A stretch of DNA of 64,000 bases from Naegleria gruberi. Its lineage: Eukaryota. This document shows, one piece after another, positions 38,164 through 57,010 of this stretch (within the stretch, counting starts at the first letter, position 1; each line of letters starts with the position of its first letter). The stretch lies in assembly GCA_000004985.1 (NCBI GenBank), contig GG738883.1; one strand, given 5' to 3'. Under the pieces are notes generated by a model. The model made no database searches. It saw only the letters and a list, made by a program, of their open reading frames with translations, and had not been told where the DNA came from. The position numbers and the translations under genes are program-made.

Positions 38164-39861
38164 ATGGCTTCCACTGCACTCCGTGTTGTTTATAACAATT
38201 TGATTGAACATGTCAGAAAGTACAAGATTCTCCAATCGGTGAATGCTCTTGCTGATTGGGATGAGTTAGTCATGATGCCTCCAAAGGGTGCTGAATCAAG
38301 AGGATTGCAAAAGACTGTCTTGGCTTCTTTGACTCACGATTTGCAAACTTCTCCACTCATTGAAAAGTATCTTTCGGAATTGGTAACTACTCAAGATGAT
38401 CAAAAGATTGTAGTGAAGAATGATTCCGAATTTGATGAATATGAAATTTCCAATATTATTCTCATCCATAAGGAATTTATAAGAAATACTAAAATTACAA
38501 AGGAATTGGTTGAGAGAGCTTCTGAATTATCTAGTCGTGGATATCATCAATGGGTTGAAGCTAGAAAGAAAAGTGATTGGACCTTGTTCCAAGACACTCT
38601 CCAAGAATGGGTTAACATTCGTAAGGAAATGAGTTTGTTGATTGAACCAAATCAAAATATTGCTGATACTTTGCTTGACGAATATGATCCTGGAATGACA
38701 TGTGAACAAGTTGCTCAAGTTTTTGAAGATGTCAAGAAGGAATTGATTCCACTCATTCAAGCCATTAGAAAGAAGGTTGAAGAAAATCCAGAAAAATACA
38801 GTGATGCTTCCTTGCTTGCCAAGATTCAAGCTGGTGCAGATGAATTGTTTGATCAAAAGGAACCGTTCCCAGTTGAAAAGCAAACTGAACTCTCCAAGCA
38901 AGTAGCTCAAGAATTAGGTTTCGATTTTGAAATGGGTAGATTGGATGTCAGTGTTCACCCATTCAGTACTTCATTCTCAACCAATGATGTCAGAATTACT
39001 ACCAGATATAATACTAAGGAATTCGTTAATGGTTTGGGTATGTTTTTTTGATGAATTATTGAAATTTATTTACCACATCATTTGGATAATTTGATTATCA
39101 TCATATAATTTACATTATCTTATTCTTGAATAATTACAGCTGGTACTGTACACGAAACAGGACACTCACTCTATGAAGCTGGTCTCAATCCACTCTATGC
39201 CTATCAACCAGTTCAATCTGCTCTTGGTACTACCATCCACGAAAGTCAATCCTTGTTCTGGGAAAGACATGTTGGTTTGAGTAAGGGATTCTGGAGAAAG
39301 TGGTTGCCAGTTGCTGAAGAATTGTTCCCATACTTGAAGCAAAAGAAATTGAGCGTTGATGACATTTACAGATCTGCCAATACTGTCACCCTCAATAACT
39401 TTATCAGAATTGAAGCTGATGAATTGACCTATCCAATGCACGTAATTCTTAGATTTGAAATAGAAAAGGGATTATTGGATGGATCAATCAGTGTTGCTGA
39501 TGTTCCAAAAGTTTGGAATGCCAAAGTTAAGGAATATTTGGGACTTGATGTTCCAAATGATGCTAAGGGTGCTCTCCAAGATGTCCACTGGAGTTCAGGC
39601 GCTTTTGCCTATTTCCCAACATATCTTCTTGGTGCTATGGCCTCTGCTCAAATCTCTGCATCCATTCCAGATTTTGAAAAACACATTGAAGAAAATAACT
39701 ATGCCTTCTTGAAGAATTGGTTGAATGAAAACATCCACAAGAGAGGTACTGTTACATTGACCTCTAACAAGTTGCTTAAGGAAGCTACTGGTTCTGAATT
39801 GAATCCAAAGATCTTTGTTAACTATCTCAAGACTAAATACAGTGCTCTCTATGATCTTTAA
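38164..39861 (+). CDS. M32-family metallocarboxypeptidase (carboxypeptidase Taq-like), two exons
   Basis: Exon 1 is 38164-39037. The intron is 39038-39139 (GTATGT...TTACAG). Exon 2 is 39140-39861. The spliced product contains 'GTVHETGHSLYEAG' (HExxH zinc site), 'TIHESQSLFWERHVG' (the HES motif) and a C-terminal 'DVHWSSGAFAYFPTY', all M32 hallmarks. Confidence 0.85.
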
Positions 39862-50222: not shown

Positions 50223-53186
50223 TTATTCCATCTTTGTTGGTGGTGGCAATTCAGTTGACTCTCCCTTTTGACTAGTAGGTGAAGCAAATGTAGCAGCTGG
50301 TGGAGTTTGTTGCATTTTCATATTAGGAGAAGAGAATTGAGCAAGAAGAGGCTTTCCAAATGGAGAAGGAGTGAAAGGACCACCAACTCCAAGTTTTGGA
50401 GTGCTTGCAAAAGGAGTTGGAGTGCTTGGAATAGCTTCCTTCTTTTCCTTCTTTGCTTTTTCCAAAGCTTCTTGTTCTTGTTGAAGTAATAACAATGACT
50501 TGGATTCTGTTTGGAGAGCTTTCCATTCCTTTGCAAGTTGAGTTTCAATAGCTTGGAAAATCTTAGTGAGTTGAGTATCAGATAAGGTGACACTCTTGAG
50601 TTGTTGCAAGGTGGTTTGGCAAAAGTTCTTCAAAGACATAATACTTTCCTTATATTCATCAAAGCTATGGATACACTTCTTATTTTCATCATCAATATCT
50701 TCATTATCCTTCTTTTCCTTCATCAAGAAAACTTCTTTTGGAACTGTGAGTAAGATGGAACCTAACAAGTGACTAACATATGAAATGTCCTTAATACATG
50801 TACTAACACTGATTTGGAAAGATAAGCTCTCTTGTTTGGTGAAACAAATGTATGGAATAATAAAATGTTCAAAGAGAAGAGAGTATGTTTGAACAAGCTC
50901 TGCAAGTTGAGTAGTGAGGAACCACTTAATATTACCAGACAAGAGAACTGGAATGGCATATTGTTGAATATCCTTGATAACTCTACAGCAATCAGAAATA
51001 AAAGAGTCAACAAAGTTGAATTCACGTTGAATGACAGATTTGCCAAATAATGATAATTCAGTAGTTTCACCTTCAAGGAAGAGTGTTCTGAAAACAAAGT
51101 TCAACTTGTGAAGGTTTTGAGAGTAGTAATGAGCATCACTTGGAATTTCAATATTTCTAAACTTTTCAATATCGTCATCCTTCTTTCTTTCAGTGGCAAA
51201 CTTTCCAATACCTTCATTGTCATTTGGAGTTTCATATCCTGAAATATTTCTGTGCGAATTAAAGGCAGCAATCTTGGCATTTTGGTGGAATCTCAAAATG
51301 GAGAAGATGAGTAACTTTCTTTCAAGGGAGTGCTTCTTGAGTTGTTCTTGTAAAGCATCCATTTCAATTGTAATCTTTGAAGATGAGGAAGCATCAGTAC
51401 TGAACAAGAGTCTTTGAATGAATGGATAAAATTCAAAAGCCAAGAACTCTGGGAGAGGAGGCAATTGATAAGGAATCTTGATTTTAAGCATGGCTTGAGC
51501 CTTATCTCCAGCATAGTATAACCTAGTGAGAGTTTCAATATATTCAACAAAATCATGTACATTGTGTACCTCCTCGAGGAATGACAAGTAAGTTGGCAAA
51601 ATACCAGCAGTATTTACAGGGACAACTGGTGAATTGGATTCAGCAACATTGATAGGGGCTGTTGGAACAGGTGTAGGTACATGGGCTTCATCAGTCATTT
51701 GTTGATCTTGATCTGATGATTTAAAACTAATCTTGATGGTTGTTCCCTTAGTGTTGGTATTAACAAGAGTGGTACCTTCTTTTTGTGGCTTAACTTTGAC
51801 CTTTTTCTTTGCTGATGCATTGGATTCTTCAGGTTCAGTGGCCTTTCTCTTATTCTTTTGCTTCAACATTGGCATGGATAAGAGAACTTGTTCAACGGAC
51901 TCTACAGGCATATTAGGGTGTTGAGAATAAATTAATTCCAATAAATAGAAGATTTCTTGAAGGAGTGTGTTAGAAATGAATGGAGATCTACAAATGACAG
52001 CAATATCTCCCCAAGCTTCACTATCAGAAGGGATATTGTCGAAAAAGTGTCTCAATTCTTTCATTCTTCTAACATCGAAAAAGTCTTTCAAATTGATAGT
52101 GTCAGAACTATCAACTTGTTTGTTTTCACCTTGTTGATTAATTCCTTCGATGGTTTCTTCCTTCTTGACAACAGGCTTTGCCTTAGCTTTGGAGCCCTTC
52201 TTTGGTTTGGCTTTTTTGGTTGCTCCTGTTGAAGATCCCAAAGAACCACTAGAACTGGCATGTGAAAGGGAAGCTTGATTTCTGGTGCAAGTAATCTCAG
52301 TCTTGGCATCTTCTGAATGTTCAGAATAGACATAATTCAATAAATTGGCATGTACAGTTCTAATCCAAGCGTCCAACCACCAACAAAAGTAATGGCACAT
52401 ATCCATTTGGTGAAGTTGTTGAACTTGATTGTCGTGAAGAGCCATCAAAAGATCATATCTGAATGTACACAAATGTCTACTTCCTGTTGCAAGGAGTTGA
52501 CTTCTACAATAGCCTAGAACTCTATGATATAACTTAGGGTCTTTTCCTAAAATATTGATCATGCTTGTCAATGTTTGATTTTTCTCTCTCTTCTTCTTTG
52601 GATCAATTTTATAGGTTGAAAGGAGGTCAATCTTGTAAATTTGAGGAAGGTCATACTTCTTCAGAAGAGTTGAAATGTGTTTGATAAACAAGTTTTCATC
52701 ATTTACCCATACTTGTCTCTTCACTTCAATAGGGAGATTTTTAAAAATCTCATTATTACCTTGAAGTTGTTGTAAAAAGTTGACAGGAATTTCATCCATT
52801 CTCTTCAAAAGAGAGTATACAATCGGACGTAATTCCTCAAATCCAATATATGGGAAAATTTGTTCCAATAGTTCCTTTTCTTGAGTTAATTCACTTTCAT
52901 TTTCAATTTTATCAAGAAGAATTTTCTTCAAATGGTTCATCAAACCAAAAAATAAATTGTTTCTTTGTACATTCAATAGATCGGTTAACTCCAAAATAGG
53001 CGGAATGCTTGGAGACACTGCATTACTAGATAATGATGAAAACTGTTTTTGAAAAGTAGTAATGGCAACCTTTGGATCACCAGAACTCAGCTTGGTAAGA
53101 ATATATTCTTGCCCTTCGGCTCCTAACAGCGCTCTTGAGTGATCAGAATTTGGCGGTTGATAACCTCCTTCACCACTTCCACTCAT
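50223..53186 (-). CDS. NELFB: negative elongation factor B (NELF-B/COBRA1) homologue with a ~400-aa C-terminal extension
   Basis: 'IEVKRQVWVNDENLFIKHISTLLKKY' and 'LCTFRYDLLMALHDNQV...CHYFCWWLDAWIR' align with NELF-B 'VEVKRQIWQDNQALF...LLKQY' and 'YCTLRAELLMSLHDLDV...CHKFTWCLDACIR' as I recall them. The ATG is at 53186. Confidence 0.7.
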   Translation of the reverse strand: MSGSGEGGYQPPNSDHSRALLGAEGQEYILTKLSSGDPKVAITTFQKQFSSLSSNAVSPSIPPILELTDLLNVQRNNLFFGLMNHLKKILLDKIENESELTQEKELLEQIFPYIGFEELRPIVYSLLKRMDEIPVNFLQQLQGNNEIFKNLPIEVKRQVWVNDENLFIKHISTLLKKYDLPQIYKIDLLSTYKIDPKKKREKNQTLTSMINILGKDPKLYHRVLGYCRSQLLATGSRHLCTFRYDLLMALHDNQVQQLHQMDMCHYFCWWLDAWIRTVHANLLNYVYSEHSEDAKTEITCTRNQASLSHASSSGSLGSSTGATKKAKPKKGSKAKAKPVVKKEETIEGINQQGENKQVDSSDTINLKDFFDVRRMKELRHFFDNIPSDSEAWGDIAVICRSPFISNTLLQEIFYLLELIYSQHPNMPVESVEQVLLSMPMLKQKNKRKATEPEESNASAKKKVKVKPQKEGTTLVNTNTKGTTIKISFKSSDQDQQMTDEAHVPTPVPTAPINVAESNSPVVPVNTAGILPTYLSFLEEVHNVHDFVEYIETLTRLYYAGDKAQAMLKIKIPYQLPPLPEFLAFEFYPFIQRLLFSTDASSSSKITIEMDALQEQLKKHSLERKLLIFSILRFHQNAKIAAFNSHRNISGYETPNDNEGIGKFATERKKDDDIEKFRNIEIPSDAHYYSQNLHKLNFVFRTLFLEGETTELSLFGKSVIQREFNFVDSFISDCCRVIKDIQQYAIPVLLSGNIKWFLTTQLAELVQTYSLLFEHFIIPYICFTKQESLSFQISVSTCIKDISYVSHLLGSILLTVPKEVFLMKEKKDNEDIDDENKKCIHSFDEYKESIMSLKNFCQTTLQQLKSVTLSDTQLTKIFQAIETQLAKEWKALQTESKSLLLLQQEQEALEKAKKEKKEAIPSTPTPFASTPKLGVGGPFTPSPFGKPLLAQFSSPNMKMQQTPPAATFASPTSQKGESTELPPPTKME

Positions 53187-53411
53187 TTTTTTTGATTAAA
53201 AAATTCTTAAAAAAATATTAAAAAATCCAAACGGTTTTTTCATCACACCAGAAAATAATACAAAACATCACTATTAAGTAAGCCTTTGCAATTAATATCA
53301 ATGAGGTCTTAAAGCACAAAATAATAGAGTTACTCTTTTATCACCCTTTCCGAACGAAAGGAATTTTAATATTAATATGCACTAGAAATTAAACTCAAAG
53401 CAGATTTAATT

Positions 53412-54817
53412 TTACAAATTCTTATGGTAAAAAGTCACCAATAATTCCTTAAACTTATTCAGATTATTGAATTGGAATGCAATGTGATTATTACAAAAGT
53501 GTCGAGTTCTGGTGGATTCTTGAAAGCTCTCTGGGTATACAATGGTGCCCATATAGGATTGGACACTCTCTGGATTGTACTTATTCTTTGAGACTGATTC
53601 CATGGTTGCTTTGAGACAATCTTCTTGATTAGAGCTTGGAACTATCGAATCACCAACTGTTTGCAAGAAGAAAATTGTTCGATTATTGGAAAGGTTTACA
53701 TTTTTTAAGAGCTCAATTGGATCGTTGTGAAATGGGGGAAAACCAAAGTGAGAAACTTTGAGAGGTGAGACGCTCTTGATAGTTTCCAATCCAAGACTTG
53801 CAATAGGATCACTGGAGACCATTGCCTTAGCTCCAAACAAAAGTGTCTGATAGACGTTACAAGGAGGTGAATCAAGGAATGCAATTTTAATTCGATTCTC
53901 TTTGGCAAATGCAATTGCTGAAGTGGCAGCTCCCTACAATTATTTCAACAATTATTTAAATAGTCTAACAAATTTCACACTTACCATTGAGCTACCAAAG
54001 AGTCCAACATTATTAGTCTCATTGAGAAATGTAAATCTTTCCAATAAATAATCAAAAGCTCCTAAAACATCCAAATGTTCAAAATTTCCAAAGCTCACAA
54101 ACTTGATTGGCTCAAATAATGATGAATCACCATGATTTCTCAAATCAATTGATAATACATTATATCCTGCATGATATAAAATTCCAGCAGGTAATAAGCT
54201 ATCATATTTTAATCGACAAACTCTGTATCCATGAACAACAATTGCAAACTTAGAAGTTGAATTGATGATATCCTGTTTGTATAATGTTCCAACAATATTT
54301 GCAGTTCCTATTTCAATTATTCCAACATTCATTCGAACAATTTGAAATTAAACTTACCTAATCCTTGAACCCAATCCACAGGTCGACTCTTAAATTTTAC
54401 AATCTCAGTCTTTTCTGAATTAACATAGAAAGGAGCCAATTTCTCATACCATTGACTCTCTGGTTCAGTCAACGGAGGACAATCATATAACAGTGTGAAA
54501 TTTTGAGGAGAATTTTCTCTGAAATATTTACAATTCTCAGGCGCAATTTCAAAAGCAACATCAAATAAATAATTACCCAAACAGAACCATCCAACCACAA
54601 ACAAAGCACCAAAGAATAATAATCCAGTAATGCACAAAATGGAAAGTGTTGAGATGGCCACAATAATTTTACGTTTTCTGGTGGATGTTGTTGATGATTG
54701 TTGATGATAGTAGGTCTCCAATGTTGCAGGATCATCATGAGTGTGGTCATCCTCTAACTTATCAAAGGATGAATATGAATGATGATGAGGTCGAGTAACA
54801 AGTGAGCTTCCTGACAT
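53412..54817 (-). CDS. membrane-anchored alpha/beta-hydrolase (ABHD/Hydrolase_4-like serine hydrolase), three exons
   Basis: Exons on the minus strand are 54817-54358, 54307-53985 and 53933-53412. Introns are 54357-54308 (GTAAGT...AATAG) and 53984-53934 (GTAAGT...TTGTAG). The N-terminus has a TM segment. 'AIVVHGYRV...IDLRNHGDS' is followed by the spliced nucleophile elbow 'GLFGSSMGAATS' (GxSxG). Confidence 0.7.
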
Positions 54818-54863
54818 TTTTTATTTGATGTGACATTTCCAGTATTCGTTCGTCCGGATAACA

Positions 54864-55040
54864 CAATGAGAGCATTTTATCTCTAAACACAAATAAAAAA
54901 TTAATTACACAAATTTTTTGTGAATATTTGTGCTGAATTGTGTTAAAATATTTTCACAAATTTGTGTTTGAGTTTGTGAAGACAGGCCATTTTATCTTGC
55001 ACAAATACATATTTTTATTAAAATTATTCCAACTAATGTC
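54864..55040. repeat. left arm of a long imperfect inverted repeat (foldback)
   Basis: 'TGAGAGCATTTTATCTCTAAACACAAATAAAAAATTAATTACACA...CAGGCCATTTTATCTTGCACAAATA' is mirrored, as its reverse complement, at 55501-55660. Confidence 0.75.
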
Positions 55041-55500
55041 TATCTCAATAGAAGGTATAAGTTGAAATCAGAAAGAATTTCTACAATATGTTGATTCGAA
55101 TGTAATGTATCCTAATTTAATTAGTGATGATGGAGTTGGTTCTGGTGGTGCGGAATCAATGAAAGCATGCTCCAAAAACAAACTGTTTTGTTCCAAATAT
55201 TTAATTATTCCATCTGTTACTGCTTTCCCTCTTTATTTCACTTGAATCTTGGGTTGTTGGTGGTGTTGGTGTTGGTTTATCTGATGAAGGTGTTCTTCTT
55301 ACATTTTTTAATATTTAATTAATAAAAAATGTATTAAACTTCTCCTTCATCAAACGGGAGAAGAAATCAGCAACCATTAGAACCCGATTCATGTCCAATT
55401 CTTGCAACAACAATATTGATATCGGATCACATATTTCAAGATCAACGACGAATGAACTTTTACTACTAGATTCAAAGAAAACAACCTAAGATTCAAGACC

Positions 55501-55660
55501 ACAATAATTTATTATTTTAATAAAATACTTTTGTGTTTTCACAAATATTTGTGCAAGATAAAATGGTCTGTCTACACAAACACAAATCACAAATTTTTAA
55601 ATCTGTGTAATTAATTTTTATTTGTGTTTAGAGATAAAATGCTCTCAATAAGAATCTTTT
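55501..55660. repeat. right arm of the inverted repeat
   Basis: The reverse complement of 55501-55660 is about 85% identical to 54864-55040, with one ~35-bp indel. Confidence 0.75.
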
Positions 55661-55740
55661 TCAATAATTATAATAAAAGTGTTAATTCTCGATTGTGGCA
55701 TAGTTTTTTGTAAATTCTGATATTTAACAACTAAATAAAA

Positions 55741-56460
55741 ATGCAACAACTTGACGAAGGAATTGACGAAGAAATCAACAGCAATTATCAACAAACAGAA
55801 ATATCCAACTCGGAATTGAATGAAAATTCCAATTCACCACAATTATCTATCAAGATTATCACATTCGGAGTATTGCATGGTAAAATTCCAAAGAATAGTT
55901 ATGATGTCTTGTACAATTTACAAGAACTTCCAAATCCTCTGACTGCACAAGCTAGAAAGAAGATGACTGGACTTTCAAAAGAGTTGAGAGAGGATTTCAT
56001 TTCCAATACAATGGTTAAATCTCATTTTGAAACATCGTATAGAGAAATTGTTGGAAAGTTGAATGAAAAATTAAAAGAATTGAGAAATATTGCTGTAGAA
56101 TTGGAGGATAAACCAGAGGAAGAGAAGGAAACCAAAGAAGATGAGGAAGAAAGTGAAGAAAATGAGGAAGACGAAGATGATGAGGAAGAAATTGAAGATG
56201 AAGACGAAGAAGAAGATGAAGAGGATGATGAGGAAGAAGATACTGATGAAAATACCTTTGTTATTGCTGTATGTTGTCACAAGGGAAAGCACAGATCTGT
56301 TTCATTTGCAGAAATTCTCAAAGAAAAGCTCACCTCAGATTCAACACTTCGTTCCTCAATTAGTTCCCTAAATGTTGTCCACAGGGATGTTCATAAGAAG
56401 GGTGCTTCCAACAATAACTCACGAGGCTCCCACAAGAGCAAATTCTTCAATGACTACTAA
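55741..56460 (+). CDS. protein with a bacterial RapZ (YhbJ/YvcJ) C-terminal-domain-like fold, interrupted by a long acidic (Glu/Asp) insertion
   Basis: 'SIKIITFGVLHGKIPKNSYDVLYNLQELPNP' parallels RapZ 'SFGFKYGIP.DAD.VFDVRFLPNPH'. 'FVIAVCCHKGKHRSVSFAEIL' parallels RapZ 'LTVAIGCTGGKHRSVYIAE'. No P-loop NTPase domain is present. Confidence 0.55.
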   Translation: MQQLDEGIDEEINSNYQQTEISNSELNENSNSPQLSIKIITFGVLHGKIPKNSYDVLYNLQELPNPLTAQARKKMTGLSKELREDFISNTMVKSHFETSYREIVGKLNEKLKELRNIAVELEDKPEEEKETKEDEEESEENEEDEDDEEEIEDEDEEEDEEDDEEEDTDENTFVIAVCCHKGKHRSVSFAEILKEKLTSDSTLRSSISSLNVVHRDVHKKGASNNNSRGSHKSKFFNDY

Positions 56461-56531
56461 CCAATCTCATTCAAACTTTACAATAATATATTCCAATTTA
56501 AATAATCTTTACAATTTTCCAATAGGAAAAA

Positions 56532-56837
56532 ATGTCTCAAAGTCAACAATGGCTTCGTAAAATTCTCTACTATATGCTCCATCTGATATTCGGAGGCAAT
56601 CAAGCCTACACATTCAAGCCAGGAGATTCTGTTCTTGTGATTGAAATTGGAAAGGATTTCGTCAAGTATTTTAAATTGACAAAACCAGAAGAACATGTGA
56701 CGAATGGAAAATCAATAACAAATGGAAAACAACTTGAAAATTATCAAAAACAATCTAATTATGGAGGAACCTTTTTGAATGTAAAGAGTTTGATGCCACC
56801 TTCTTCATCTTCCGATCATTCCATTCAAATTATTTGA
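56532..56837 (+). CDS. hypothetical small protein
   Basis: The 101-aa ORF has an ATG at 56532. It has a KOW-like 'FKPGDSVLVIEIGKD' stretch and no firm assignment. Confidence 0.3.
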   Translation: MSQSQQWLRKILYYMLHLIFGGNQAYTFKPGDSVLVIEIGKDFVKYFKLTKPEEHVTNGKSITNGKQLENYQKQSNYGGTFLNVKSLMPPSSSSDHSIQII

Positions 56838-57010
56838 ATTATTAATAATATGAAAAAAGGCTTTTTTGTTGAAATTTGATGATAGAATAATCCAATAAGA
56901 GATAGAAAAATTGATAATATTATCACCCCAATGATGCTAATGATAATAAGAATTATTAAAGTATCAAATAACAATTAAATTTATTTAATTATTAAAATTA
57001 TATTAAAAAA

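What the first reader, a model, noticed from the sequence alone, without database searches (positions are those of the whole stretch)
54864..55660. ~0.8-kb foldback structure (170-bp inverted repeats) filling the bidirectional promoter between the ABHD gene and the RapZ-like gene
Positions 54864-55040 and the reverse complement of 55501-55660 are about 85% identical, for example GAGAGCATTTTATCTCTAAACACAAATAAAAA(A)TTAATTACACA...CCATTTTATCTTGCACAAATA. They enclose a 460-bp non-coding core. The structure lies exactly between two divergently transcribed genes, with starts at 54817 (minus) and 55741 (plus). Each arm sits about 50-90 bp upstream of one start codon. It could be a MITE or foldback transposon inserted into the promoter. 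It could also be a symmetric regulatory module serving both genes. No other inverted repeat of this size occurs in the 64 kb.
Basis: seen in the sequence. Interest (0 to 1): 0.65.

Follow-up and report, generated by a model that had tools for sequence, protein, structure and literature searches.

The report
Small DNA transposon in Naegleria promoter
The 0.8-kb inverted-repeat structure is a small non-coding "cut-and-paste" DNA transposon inserted between two divergent Naegleria gruberi genes; a 98%-identical environmental relative lacks it precisely, so it is a recent mobile-element insertion of an ordinary kind, not a conserved regulatory palindrome.

Summary
The inverted repeat is real. The termini are perfect for 32-33 nt and the arms run about 163 and 139 nt. 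A single-strand DNA fold gives z = -13.7, and no comparable inverted repeat occurs elsewhere in the 64 kb.

The window is Naegleria gruberi NEG-M: the right-hand gene is 100% identical to XP_002674543.1. An environmental metagenome contig (L001) matches both flanks at 98.4% and 95.2% and lacks the structure entirely. Its sequence ...ACACAATAAGAATC... corresponds to ...ACACAAT|GAGAGC...GCTCTC|AATAAGAATC... in the window.

The structure is therefore a 779-bp element (54868-55646) with terminal inverted repeats. It has a 3-bp target-site duplication AAT, no coding capacity, and clustered subterminal CACAAAT repeats. In short, it is a MITE-like non-autonomous DNA transposon.

It widens a ~147-bp bidirectional promoter to 923 bp, sitting 50 bp and 94 bp from the two start codons. 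The "symmetric regulatory module" reading is rejected.

The superfamily is unresolved:
- AAT fits the 5'-ANT-3' rule of the Pangu group (PHIS superfamily).
- TSD or termini exclude hAT, Tc1/mariner, Kolobok/piggyBac, CACTA and Mutator/Foldback.
- A published PHIS survey that included N. gruberi lists no family for it.

Copy number could not be tested, because no Naegleria genome is searchable by DNA here. This is an ordinary kind of feature, with modest interest as evidence of recent transposition in a transposon-poor genome.

The parts
54865..54867 (.). Left copy of the 3-bp target-site duplication, AAT
   Evidence: The empty site in L001 reads ACACAAT-AAGAATC, with AAT once. The window has AAT on both sides of the insert.
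54868..55646 (.). Whole element, 779 bp: a non-autonomous DNA transposon with terminal inverted repeats (MITE-like)
   Evidence: L001 1-1912 matches window 52967-54871 at 98.4%, and L001 1905-3284 matches window 55646-56985 at 95.2%. The interval between is missing from L001. The fold gives z = -13.7. Its ORFs have no Pfam family and the region has no Rfam family.
54868..54899 (+). Left perfect terminal inverted repeat, 32 nt: GAGAGCATTTTATCTCTAAACACAAATAAAAA
   Evidence: Perfect inverted pair 54867-54899 / 55615-55647. The TIR 23-mer occurs only at these two places in the window even with 3 mismatches allowed; 0 are expected by chance.
54868..55030 (+). Left arm, 163 nt. It holds two CATTTTATCT..CACAAATA motifs (54873, 54988) and CACAAAT/ATTTGTG subterminal repeats
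   Evidence: Arm alignment and motif positions. 11 of the window's 33 CACAAAT/ATTTGTG heptamers lie in the element.
55031..55507 (.). Non-coding core, about 477 bp. It has an internal 18-nt inverted pair (55241-55258 / 55480-55497) and a 34-nt AT palindrome (55300-55333)
   Evidence: pairs I7, I9. Six-frame ORFs have no Pfam match and no homologue in the protein collection.
55508..55646 (-). Right arm, 139 nt, the inverted copy of the left arm with indels
55615..55646 (-). Right perfect terminal inverted repeat, 32 nt
55647..55649 (.). Right copy of the 3-bp target-site duplication, AAT
53412..54817 (-). Left flanking gene (alpha/beta-hydrolase-like, three ORFs in different frames). Its ATG at 54817 lies 50 bp from the element
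   Evidence: ORFs. Weak Abhydrolase_6 match, E = 3e-4, below cut-off. The same ORF structure is present in L001.
55741..56460 (+). Right flanking gene, a RapZ C-terminal-domain protein (N. gruberi XP_002674543.1). Its ATG at 55741 lies 94 bp from the element
   Evidence: PF22740, E = 2e-15. 100% identity to the N. gruberi protein.

Best explanation
The structure is one copy of a 779-bp non-autonomous class II (cut-and-paste) DNA transposon at 54868-55646.

**Anatomy (shown).**
- Perfect 32-nt terminal inverted repeats beginning GAGAGC.
- Imperfect inverted arms of about 163 and 139 nt. Each holds two CATTTTATCT..CACAAATA motifs and many CACAAAT heptamers.
- A non-coding core of about 477 bp.
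- A 3-bp target-site duplication, AAT.
- Presence in N. gruberi NEG-M and precise absence in a 98%-identical relative.

**Mechanism (inferred).**
- A transposase encoded elsewhere in the genome binds the terminal and subterminal repeats.
- It makes a 3-bp staggered cut at the target, and repair of the stagger creates the duplication.
- The element landed in the ~147-bp shared promoter of two divergent genes in the lineage of N. gruberi NEG-M, after that lineage split from an environmental relative. Alternatively, it was excised precisely in that relative.
- The apparent symmetry with respect to the two genes is a by-product of a TIR element landing in a bidirectional promoter.
- The insertion pushes the two core promoters about 0.8 kb apart and places the same arm sequence, in the same relative orientation, upstream of each gene. 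This may alter their expression or co-regulation.

For: - **Empty site.** L001 (ENA ERZ929261 contig) is collinear with both flanks at 98.4% and 95.2% identity and lacks exactly the interval bounded by the TIRs.
- **Junctions.** They read ACACAAT|GAGAGC...GCTCTC|AATAAGAATC in the window and ACACAATAAGAATC in L001. This gives a 3-bp duplication and perfectly symmetric ends.
- **Not an assembly artefact.** The joint in L001 shares only 4 bp (CAAT) with both window junctions. The contig name (k127_...) implies a 127-mer de Bruijn assembly, and such a joint could not arise from a 4-bp overlap.
- **Inverted repeat far above chance**.
- **Repeated short motifs in the arms, as in transposase-binding subterminal repeats.** 11 of the window's 33 CACAAAT/ATTTGTG heptamers lie in 1.2% of its length. 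All four CATTTTATCT / AGATAAAATG motifs in the window are here.
- **No coding or RNA-family content**.
- **TSD and TIR length.** Pangu elements have ANT TSDs and TIRs of 11-40 bp (PMC4482050). AAT and 32 bp both fit.
- **DNA transposons are known in Naegleria**: Kolobok and MuDRF (PMC9587614, PMC3164196).
Against: - **Only one copy was seen.** No second copy is in the 64 kb.
- **No copy in any searchable collection**: JGI metagenomes, viral contigs, prokaryote genomes, or the protein collection queried with the element's ORFs. None of these holds N. gruberi genomic DNA, so this says little, but multi-copy status is unproven.
- **No transposase gene in the window**.
- **Superfamily guess is weak.** The TSD rests on a single insertion. 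Pangu TIRs usually start AG or GG, and this one starts GA. The PHIS survey of 836 genomes included N. gruberi and lists no PHIS family for it.
- **Polarity is not resolved.** The outgroup species lack the left gene, so insertion in NEG-M and precise excision in the relative cannot be told apart.
Confidence: 0.85

Rival explanations
1. It is a conserved symmetric cis-regulatory palindrome that serves both divergent genes. It is single-copy and kept by selection.
For: It lies exactly between two divergent start codons, with one arm 50 bp and the other 94 bp upstream. Only one copy was found anywhere that could be searched.
Against: A relative with 98% identical flanks and intact copies of the flanking ORFs lacks it completely and precisely. 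The boundaries coincide with a perfect TIR plus a 3-bp direct duplication, which a regulatory palindrome has no reason to show. In N. fowleri and N. lovaniensis the interval has a different gene content and is only about 130-195 bp long.
Confidence: 0.03
2. The sequence is not mobile. The relative lost it by a microhomology-mediated (CAAT) or hairpin-stimulated deletion, or the metagenome assembler skipped it.
For: Long inverted repeats are deletion-prone. A 4-bp direct repeat, CAAT, flanks the interval. L001 is a single metagenome contig of unknown coverage.
Against: The deletion end points would have to fall, to the base, on the outer ends of a perfect 32-nt inverted repeat and leave exactly one copy of a 3-bp repeat. 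A 127-mer assembly graph cannot join sequences that share 4 bp. The arm architecture, with terminal and repeated subterminal motifs, is that of a transposon.
Confidence: 0.05
3. It is a mobile element of another superfamily with a different TSD: an hAT-type MITE with an 8-bp duplication (CAATGAGA / CAATAAGA, 7 of 8), or a CMC- or Academ-type element with a 3-4-bp duplication (CAAT).
For: BLAST alignments of L001 to the two flanks overlap by 8 bp. The two 8-mers differ at one base. The 4-bp CAAT is also a possible duplication. CMC TSDs are 2-4 bp (PMC4482050).
Against: - The 8-bp model needs a mutation in one TSD copy and gives ends offset by 3 nt (GCATTTT... against AGAGCATTTT...). The 3-bp model needs no mutation and gives perfectly symmetric ends.
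- The 4-bp model leaves the ends offset by 1 nt.
- The termini are not CAC..GTG as in EnSpm/CACTA (PMC12730594).
- (From my own knowledge) they are also not the YARNG typical of hAT.
Confidence: 0.07

Closest known systems
MITEs / short non-autonomous TIR DNA transposons (Tourist-like elements mobilised by PIF/Harbinger-type transposases, e.g. rice mPing)
   Same: - Terminal inverted repeats, a 3-bp target-site duplication and an AT-rich target.
- No coding capacity and a strong hairpin potential.
- Insertion close to gene starts, and a presence/absence polymorphism between close relatives.
   Different: - At 779 bp it is at or above the usual MITE size limit.
- The inverted arms are unusually long (about 140-165 nt) with repeated subterminal motifs.
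- The TSD is AAT, not the TWA of canonical PIF/Harbinger.
- Copy number and the autonomous partner are unknown.
Pangu group of the PHIS superfamily (Han et al. 2015, PMC4482050)
   Same: - 3-bp TSD of the form 5'-ANT-3'; AAT fits.
- TIR length within 11-40 bp; 32 bp fits.
   Different: - The TIR starts GA rather than the usual AG or GG.
- Pangu was reported from animals, fungi, a heterokont and algae, not from Heterolobosea.
- The same survey screened the N. gruberi genome and lists no PHIS family there.
- No transposase link could be tested.
Drosophila Foldback (FB) elements
   Same: Long inverted arms containing short internal repeats, which make the whole element fold back on itself.
   Different: - (From my own knowledge) FB arms are kilobase-scale arrays of tandem repeats.
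- (From my own knowledge) FB elements make 9-bp TSDs and group with Mutator.
- Here the arms are about 150 nt, the heptamers are dispersed in both orientations, and the TSD is 3 bp.
Kolobok transposons, a superfamily already reported in Naegleria (PMC9587614)
   Same: Same host genus, and purine-purine / pyrimidine-pyrimidine termini (5'-GA...TC-3' fits 5'-RR...YY-3').
   Different: Kolobok makes TTAA-specific 4-bp TSDs. The target here contains no TTAA and the duplication is AAT.

Membership tests
Non-autonomous TIR DNA transposon / MITE | Terminal inverted repeats at both ends | tested here: met
   Perfect 32-nt TIR within the element (33-nt pair). It is unique in the window even with 3 mismatches allowed.
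Non-autonomous TIR DNA transposon / MITE | Target-site duplication flanking the element, verified against an empty site | tested here: met
   AAT lies on both sides in the window and once in the empty site of L001.
Non-autonomous TIR DNA transposon / MITE | Small size and no transposase coding capacity | tested here: met
   779 bp. The longest open frame is 63 codons. No Pfam family and no homologue in 5.8 billion proteins.
Non-autonomous TIR DNA transposon / MITE | Multiple copies in the genome (a family) | not testable with these tools
   One copy in the 64-kb window. No collection holding N. gruberi genomic DNA can be searched by DNA. Scans of JGI metagenomes, viral contigs and prokaryote genomes were negative or gave only chance hits.
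Non-autonomous TIR DNA transposon / MITE | Insertion polymorphism between related genomes (evidence of mobility) | tested here: met
   Filled in N. gruberi NEG-M, empty in a relative whose flanks are 98.4% and 95.2% identical.
PHIS superfamily, Pangu group | 3-bp TSD of the form 5'-ANT-3' | tested here: met
   The TSD is AAT. The rule is from PMC4482050. It rests on one insertion only.
PHIS superfamily, Pangu group | TIR 11-40 bp, usually starting AG or GG | tested here: inconclusive
   The 32-nt length fits. The TIR starts GA, which is not one of the usual dinucleotides.
PHIS superfamily, Pangu group | Autonomous relative with the same ends that encodes a PHIS DDE transposase | not testable with these tools
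   No transposase domain in the window. The published survey of 836 genomes included N. gruberi but lists no PHIS family for it, which counts against membership.
Canonical PIF/Harbinger (Tourist MITEs) | 3-bp TSD TWA (TAA/TTA) | tested here: not met
   The length of 3 bp is met, but the sequence is AAT, not TWA (rule in PMC4482050).
hAT | 8-bp (5-8-bp) TSD | tested here: not met
   The 8-mers CAATGAGA and CAATAAGA differ at one base. Using them as the TSD offsets the two ends by 3 nt, whereas the empty site supports a 3-bp duplication.
Tc1/mariner (Stowaway MITEs) | TA dinucleotide TSD | tested here: not met
   The junctions are AAT|GAGAGC and GCTCTC|AAT. No TA duplication is present.
Kolobok / piggyBac | TTAA target-site duplication | tested here: not met
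   No TTAA at either junction or in the empty site. The Kolobok rule is from PMC9587614.
CACTA / EnSpm | Termini 5'-CAC...GTG-3' with a 3-bp TSD | tested here: not met
   The termini are GAGAGC...GCTCTC. The rule is from PMC12730594.
Foldback (FB) / Mutator | 9-bp (8-11-bp) TSD, with arms made of tandem repeat arrays | tested here: not met
   The TSD is 3 bp. Tandem Repeats Finder reports only a 3-copy CACAAAT run in one arm. The 9-bp rule for MuDR elements is from PMC3164196. The FB details are from my own knowledge.

The most novel reading that the evidence does not exclude
The element may be the visible tip of a recently active DNA-transposon family in Naegleria gruberi, a genome reported to be only about 0.3% transposable elements. 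Two possibilities remain open.
- It is the first Pangu-type (ANT-target) PHIS family in Heterolobosea/Discoba, whose autonomous partner escaped a published survey.
- It belongs to a lineage not yet classified.

Its insertion may also have rewired a compact bidirectional promoter, so that natural strains differ in expression of the two flanking genes. If transcribed, it could yield hairpin-derived small RNAs.
Probability: 0.2. Interest if true: 0.45.

Novelty: new member of a known kind. Interest (0 to 1): 0.3.

Why it matters
Naegleria genomes are reported as very poor in transposable elements. N. gruberi is given as 0.28% (bioRxiv 10.64898/2026.06.24.734286), and N. lovaniensis as 3.4% repeats with 1.25% DNA transposons (PMC6125883).

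A clean filled/empty polymorphism between two N. gruberi-type genomes shows that at least one cut-and-paste family moved recently. This has three practical consequences:
- It gives an exact TIR and TSD with which to find the family and its transposase.
- It provides a strain marker.
- It offers a natural experiment on how a 0.8-kb insertion affects a ~150-bp bidirectional promoter.

An active endogenous transposon would also be a candidate genetic tool for an organism that has few. Beyond that, the feature is an ordinary type of mobile-element insertion.

Tried and rejected
- **Candida/yeast transposon lead.** My first guess from base composition was a Candida 'Cirt' transposon, and I searched the literature for it. 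I dropped it when protein hits showed the window is Naegleria.
- **Other copies by exact TIR 22-mer.** JGI metagenomes gave 0 hits and prokaryote genomes gave 0. An internal 20-mer against viral contigs gave 0.
- **Other copies by degenerate motif** (CATTTTATCTN{2,5}CACAAATA). This gave 120+ metagenome and 14 viral single hits. blastn of the whole element against all fetched loci found nothing longer than 47 nt. The best hit, L035, is a phage-like coding sequence and a chance match.
- **Other copies through gene calls.** I searched a concatenate of all 15 open frames of at least 30 codons against 5.8 billion proteins and got no hit.
- **Exact look-ups of window proteins to reach the N. gruberi assembly.** All came back not on record, so the rest of the genome could not be read.
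- **Transposase in the window.** Pfam scans of the non-nested ORFs of at least 150 aa (41 of the 47 listed) found host genes only.
- **RNA gene inside the element.** Rfam gave one sub-threshold chance hit (Yfr10, E = 0.5), and no tRNA was found.
- **Published description of this family.** Literature searches on Naegleria transposons found none.
- **Outgroup polarity.** N. fowleri and N. lovaniensis lack the left gene at this locus, so they cannot show whether the site was ancestrally empty.

Full report
**1. The observation**

Reading 54600-55900 and running the repeat finder confirms a large inverted repeat. There is a perfect 33-nt pair at 54867-54899 / 55615-55647. There is also a 56-nt pair at 82% (54952-55007 / 55546-55601), a 21-nt pair at 95% and a 15-nt pair at 93%. 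blastn of the interval against the whole window shows self-inverted blocks of 50 nt at 96% and 51 nt at 92%, and no other copy in the 64 kb.

A global alignment of the arms (163 nt against 139 nt) has 115 matches, 8 mismatches and 56 indel columns. The arms are therefore about 93% identical where they align, but they differ by several indels.

The repeat is far above chance:
- Local alignment score 92, against 21.7 +/- 3.0 for shuffles.
- Score 90, against 18.2 +/- 3.3 (max 40) for 1456 equally spaced segment pairs from the real window.
- Single-strand DNA fold -148.1 kcal/mol, against -71.3 +/- 5.6 for shuffles, z = -13.7.

The only other inverted repeats of at least 30 nt within 5 kb are three pairs of 71-76% complementarity, at least two in simple or low-complexity sequence.

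**2. Where the window comes from**

The right-hand ORF (239 aa) carries a RapZ C-terminal domain (PF22740, E = 2e-15). Its homologues are Naegleria proteins. A cluster look-up shows it is 100% identical to N. gruberi XP_002674543.1 / NAEGRDRAFT_70261. The window is therefore N. gruberi NEG-M nuclear DNA.

The neighbourhood is ordinary and gene-dense: beta-adaptin, an amino-acid transporter, a COBRA1/NELF-B homologue, then the two genes of interest. It is syntenic with N. fowleri and N. lovaniensis.

**3. The decisive result: an empty site**

The closest relative of the RapZ-like protein lies on a 3.3-kb ENA metagenome contig, L001 (ERZ929261, k127_109388). L001 1-1912 aligns to window 52967-54871 at 98.4%. 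L001 1905-3284 aligns to window 55646-56985 at 95.2%. Everything between is missing.

At the base level:
- L001 reads ...TCGTCCGTATAACACAATAAGAATCTTTTTC...
- The window reads ...TCGTCCGGATAACACAAT|GAGAGCATTTT...AAAATGCTCTC|AATAAGAATCTTTTTC...

The extra 782 bp in the window therefore consist of a 779-bp element (54868-55646) plus a second copy of AAT. The ends of the element are the outer ends of the perfect inverted repeat. This is the signature of a TIR transposon with a 3-bp target-site duplication.

Other ways of parsing the junction are less parsimonious:
- A 4-bp CAAT duplication leaves the two ends offset by one base.
- An 8-bp CAATGAGA / CAATAAGA duplication needs a mutation and offsets the ends by three bases.
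- Taking TGAGAGC...GCTCTCA as the ends leaves a 1-bp duplication.

The joint in L001 shares only 4 bp with each window junction, so it cannot be an artefact of a 127-mer assembly graph. The flanking ORFs in L001 differ from the window by only 1-2 residues each. The two genomes are thus very close relatives that differ by this insertion.

**4. Anatomy of the element**

Each arm carries two copies of CATTTTATCT(N2-5)CACAAATA, one terminal and one about 115-120 nt (left) or about 80 nt (right) in from the end. These are the only four such sites in the window.

The heptamer CACAAAT or its complement occurs 11 times in the element, out of 33 in the whole 64 kb. That is about 27-fold enrichment. Terminal plus repeated subterminal motifs of this kind are what transposases of many cut-and-paste families bind. 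This is established for hAT, PIF, CACTA and Mutator elements (my own knowledge); it is an inference here.

The core (about 55031-55507) has an 18-nt internal inverted pair and an AT palindrome. It has no coding or RNA-family content:
- The longest open frame is 63 codons.
- Its ORFs match no Pfam family.
- A concatenate of all open frames has no homologue in 5.8 billion proteins.
- There is no credible Rfam match and no tRNA.

The element is therefore non-autonomous.

**5. How it most likely works**

Shown:
- The structure (TIRs, TSD, subterminal repeats, non-coding core).
- The precise filled/empty polymorphism.

Inferred:
- A transposase encoded elsewhere recognises the terminal and subterminal repeats and inserts the element at a 3-bp staggered cut.
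- The insertion happened in the NEG-M lineage after it split from the L001 lineage. Alternatively, it was excised precisely in the latter. Precise excision is known for PIF-type MITEs (my own knowledge). The outgroups cannot settle polarity because they lack the left gene.

The empty allele has only 147 bp between the two start codons; the filled allele has 923 bp. The element sits 50 bp from the hydrolase-like gene's ATG and 94 bp from the RapZ-like gene's ATG.

Whether the insertion changes transcription is untested. It must at least separate whatever shared promoter elements lay on either side of the insertion point.

**6. Comparison with known families**

The 3-bp TSD and the GA...TC termini exclude:
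- hAT (8 bp).
- Tc1/mariner (TA).
- Kolobok and piggyBac (TTAA; Kolobok is known in Naegleria, PMC9587614).
- Mutator/Foldback (9 bp; MuDRF is known in N. gruberi, PMC3164196).
- CACTA/EnSpm (CAC..GTG termini, PMC12730594).

Canonical PIF/Harbinger makes TWA duplications, which AAT is not. The Pangu group of the same PHIS superfamily makes 5'-ANT-3' duplications and has TIRs of 11-40 bp (PMC4482050), and both features fit.

Against membership:
- Pangu TIRs usually begin AG or GG, and this one begins GA.
- Pangu was not reported from Heterolobosea.
- The survey's genome list includes N. gruberi while no PHIS family is listed for it.

With one insertion and no transposase, the superfamily stays open. 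I put Pangu-like PHIS at roughly 0.3 among the superfamily options.

**7. What could not be done**

All indirect searches for further copies were negative or gave only chance matches. No transposase lies in the window. No paper in the library describes this element.

**8. Verdict**

The 'MITE inserted into the promoter' reading is supported by a clean empty site. The 'conserved regulatory palindrome' reading is rejected.

It is a new member of a known kind, a MITE-like non-autonomous DNA transposon. Its modest added interest is that Naegleria genomes are transposon-poor (N. gruberi 0.28% TE in bioRxiv 10.64898/2026.06.24.734286; N. lovaniensis 1.25% DNA transposons, PMC6125883), and this copy documents recent mobility. 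Interest 0.3.

Noticed in passing
window 53412-54817 (minus); L002 9871-10001; L004 5806-6001: The alpha/beta-hydrolase-like gene between COBRA1 and the RapZ-like gene is absent from the syntenic interval of N. lovaniensis and N. fowleri. In those species the two genes are directly adjacent and divergent, about 130 and 195 bp apart. This is a lineage-specific gene gain or loss right next to the transposon site.
   Followed up: partly
window 53412-54817 (minus); L001 447-1852: The hydrolase-like gene is split into three ORFs in different frames, and the first two overlap by 4 nt. The same structure is present in the relative L001, so these are probably short introns rather than errors. Pfam support for 'ABHD' is weak: Abhydrolase_6 scores E = 3e-4, below the cut-off, on a crude join.
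   Followed up: partly
L001 2249-2251 (equivalent to window ~55990): The environmental relative has TCA->TAA at codon 84 of the RapZ-like gene, which splits it into 83-aa and 149-aa ORFs. This may be a real null allele in the strain that lacks the transposon, or a low-coverage metagenome error.
   Followed up: partly
window 55741-56460 (+): A bacterial-type RapZ C-terminal domain (PF22740) is encoded in a eukaryote, and the gene is conserved in N. gruberi, N. lovaniensis and N. fowleri. In N. gruberi the match is split by an acidic Glu/Asp-rich tract built from degenerate GAA/GAT repeats (56115-56250). Its origin and function in Naegleria were not examined.
   Followed up: no
L001 1875-1880, against window ~54834: A 6-bp indel (ATGTTA, present in L001 and absent in the window) lies about 20 bp upstream of the hydrolase-like gene's ATG. 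This is a second small difference in the shared promoter.
   Followed up: no
window 38164-39051 and 39253-39861 (+): An M32 (Taq-type) carboxypeptidase is split into two ORFs that cover profile positions 2-254 and 294-489. An intron probably lies between them.
   Followed up: no
window 55241-55258 / 55480-55497 and 55300-55333: The core of the element holds a second 18-nt inverted pair (94%) and a 34-nt AT palindrome. The left side also has about 200 nt (55040-55240) with no counterpart on the right. The core may be a nested or captured fragment.
   Followed up: no
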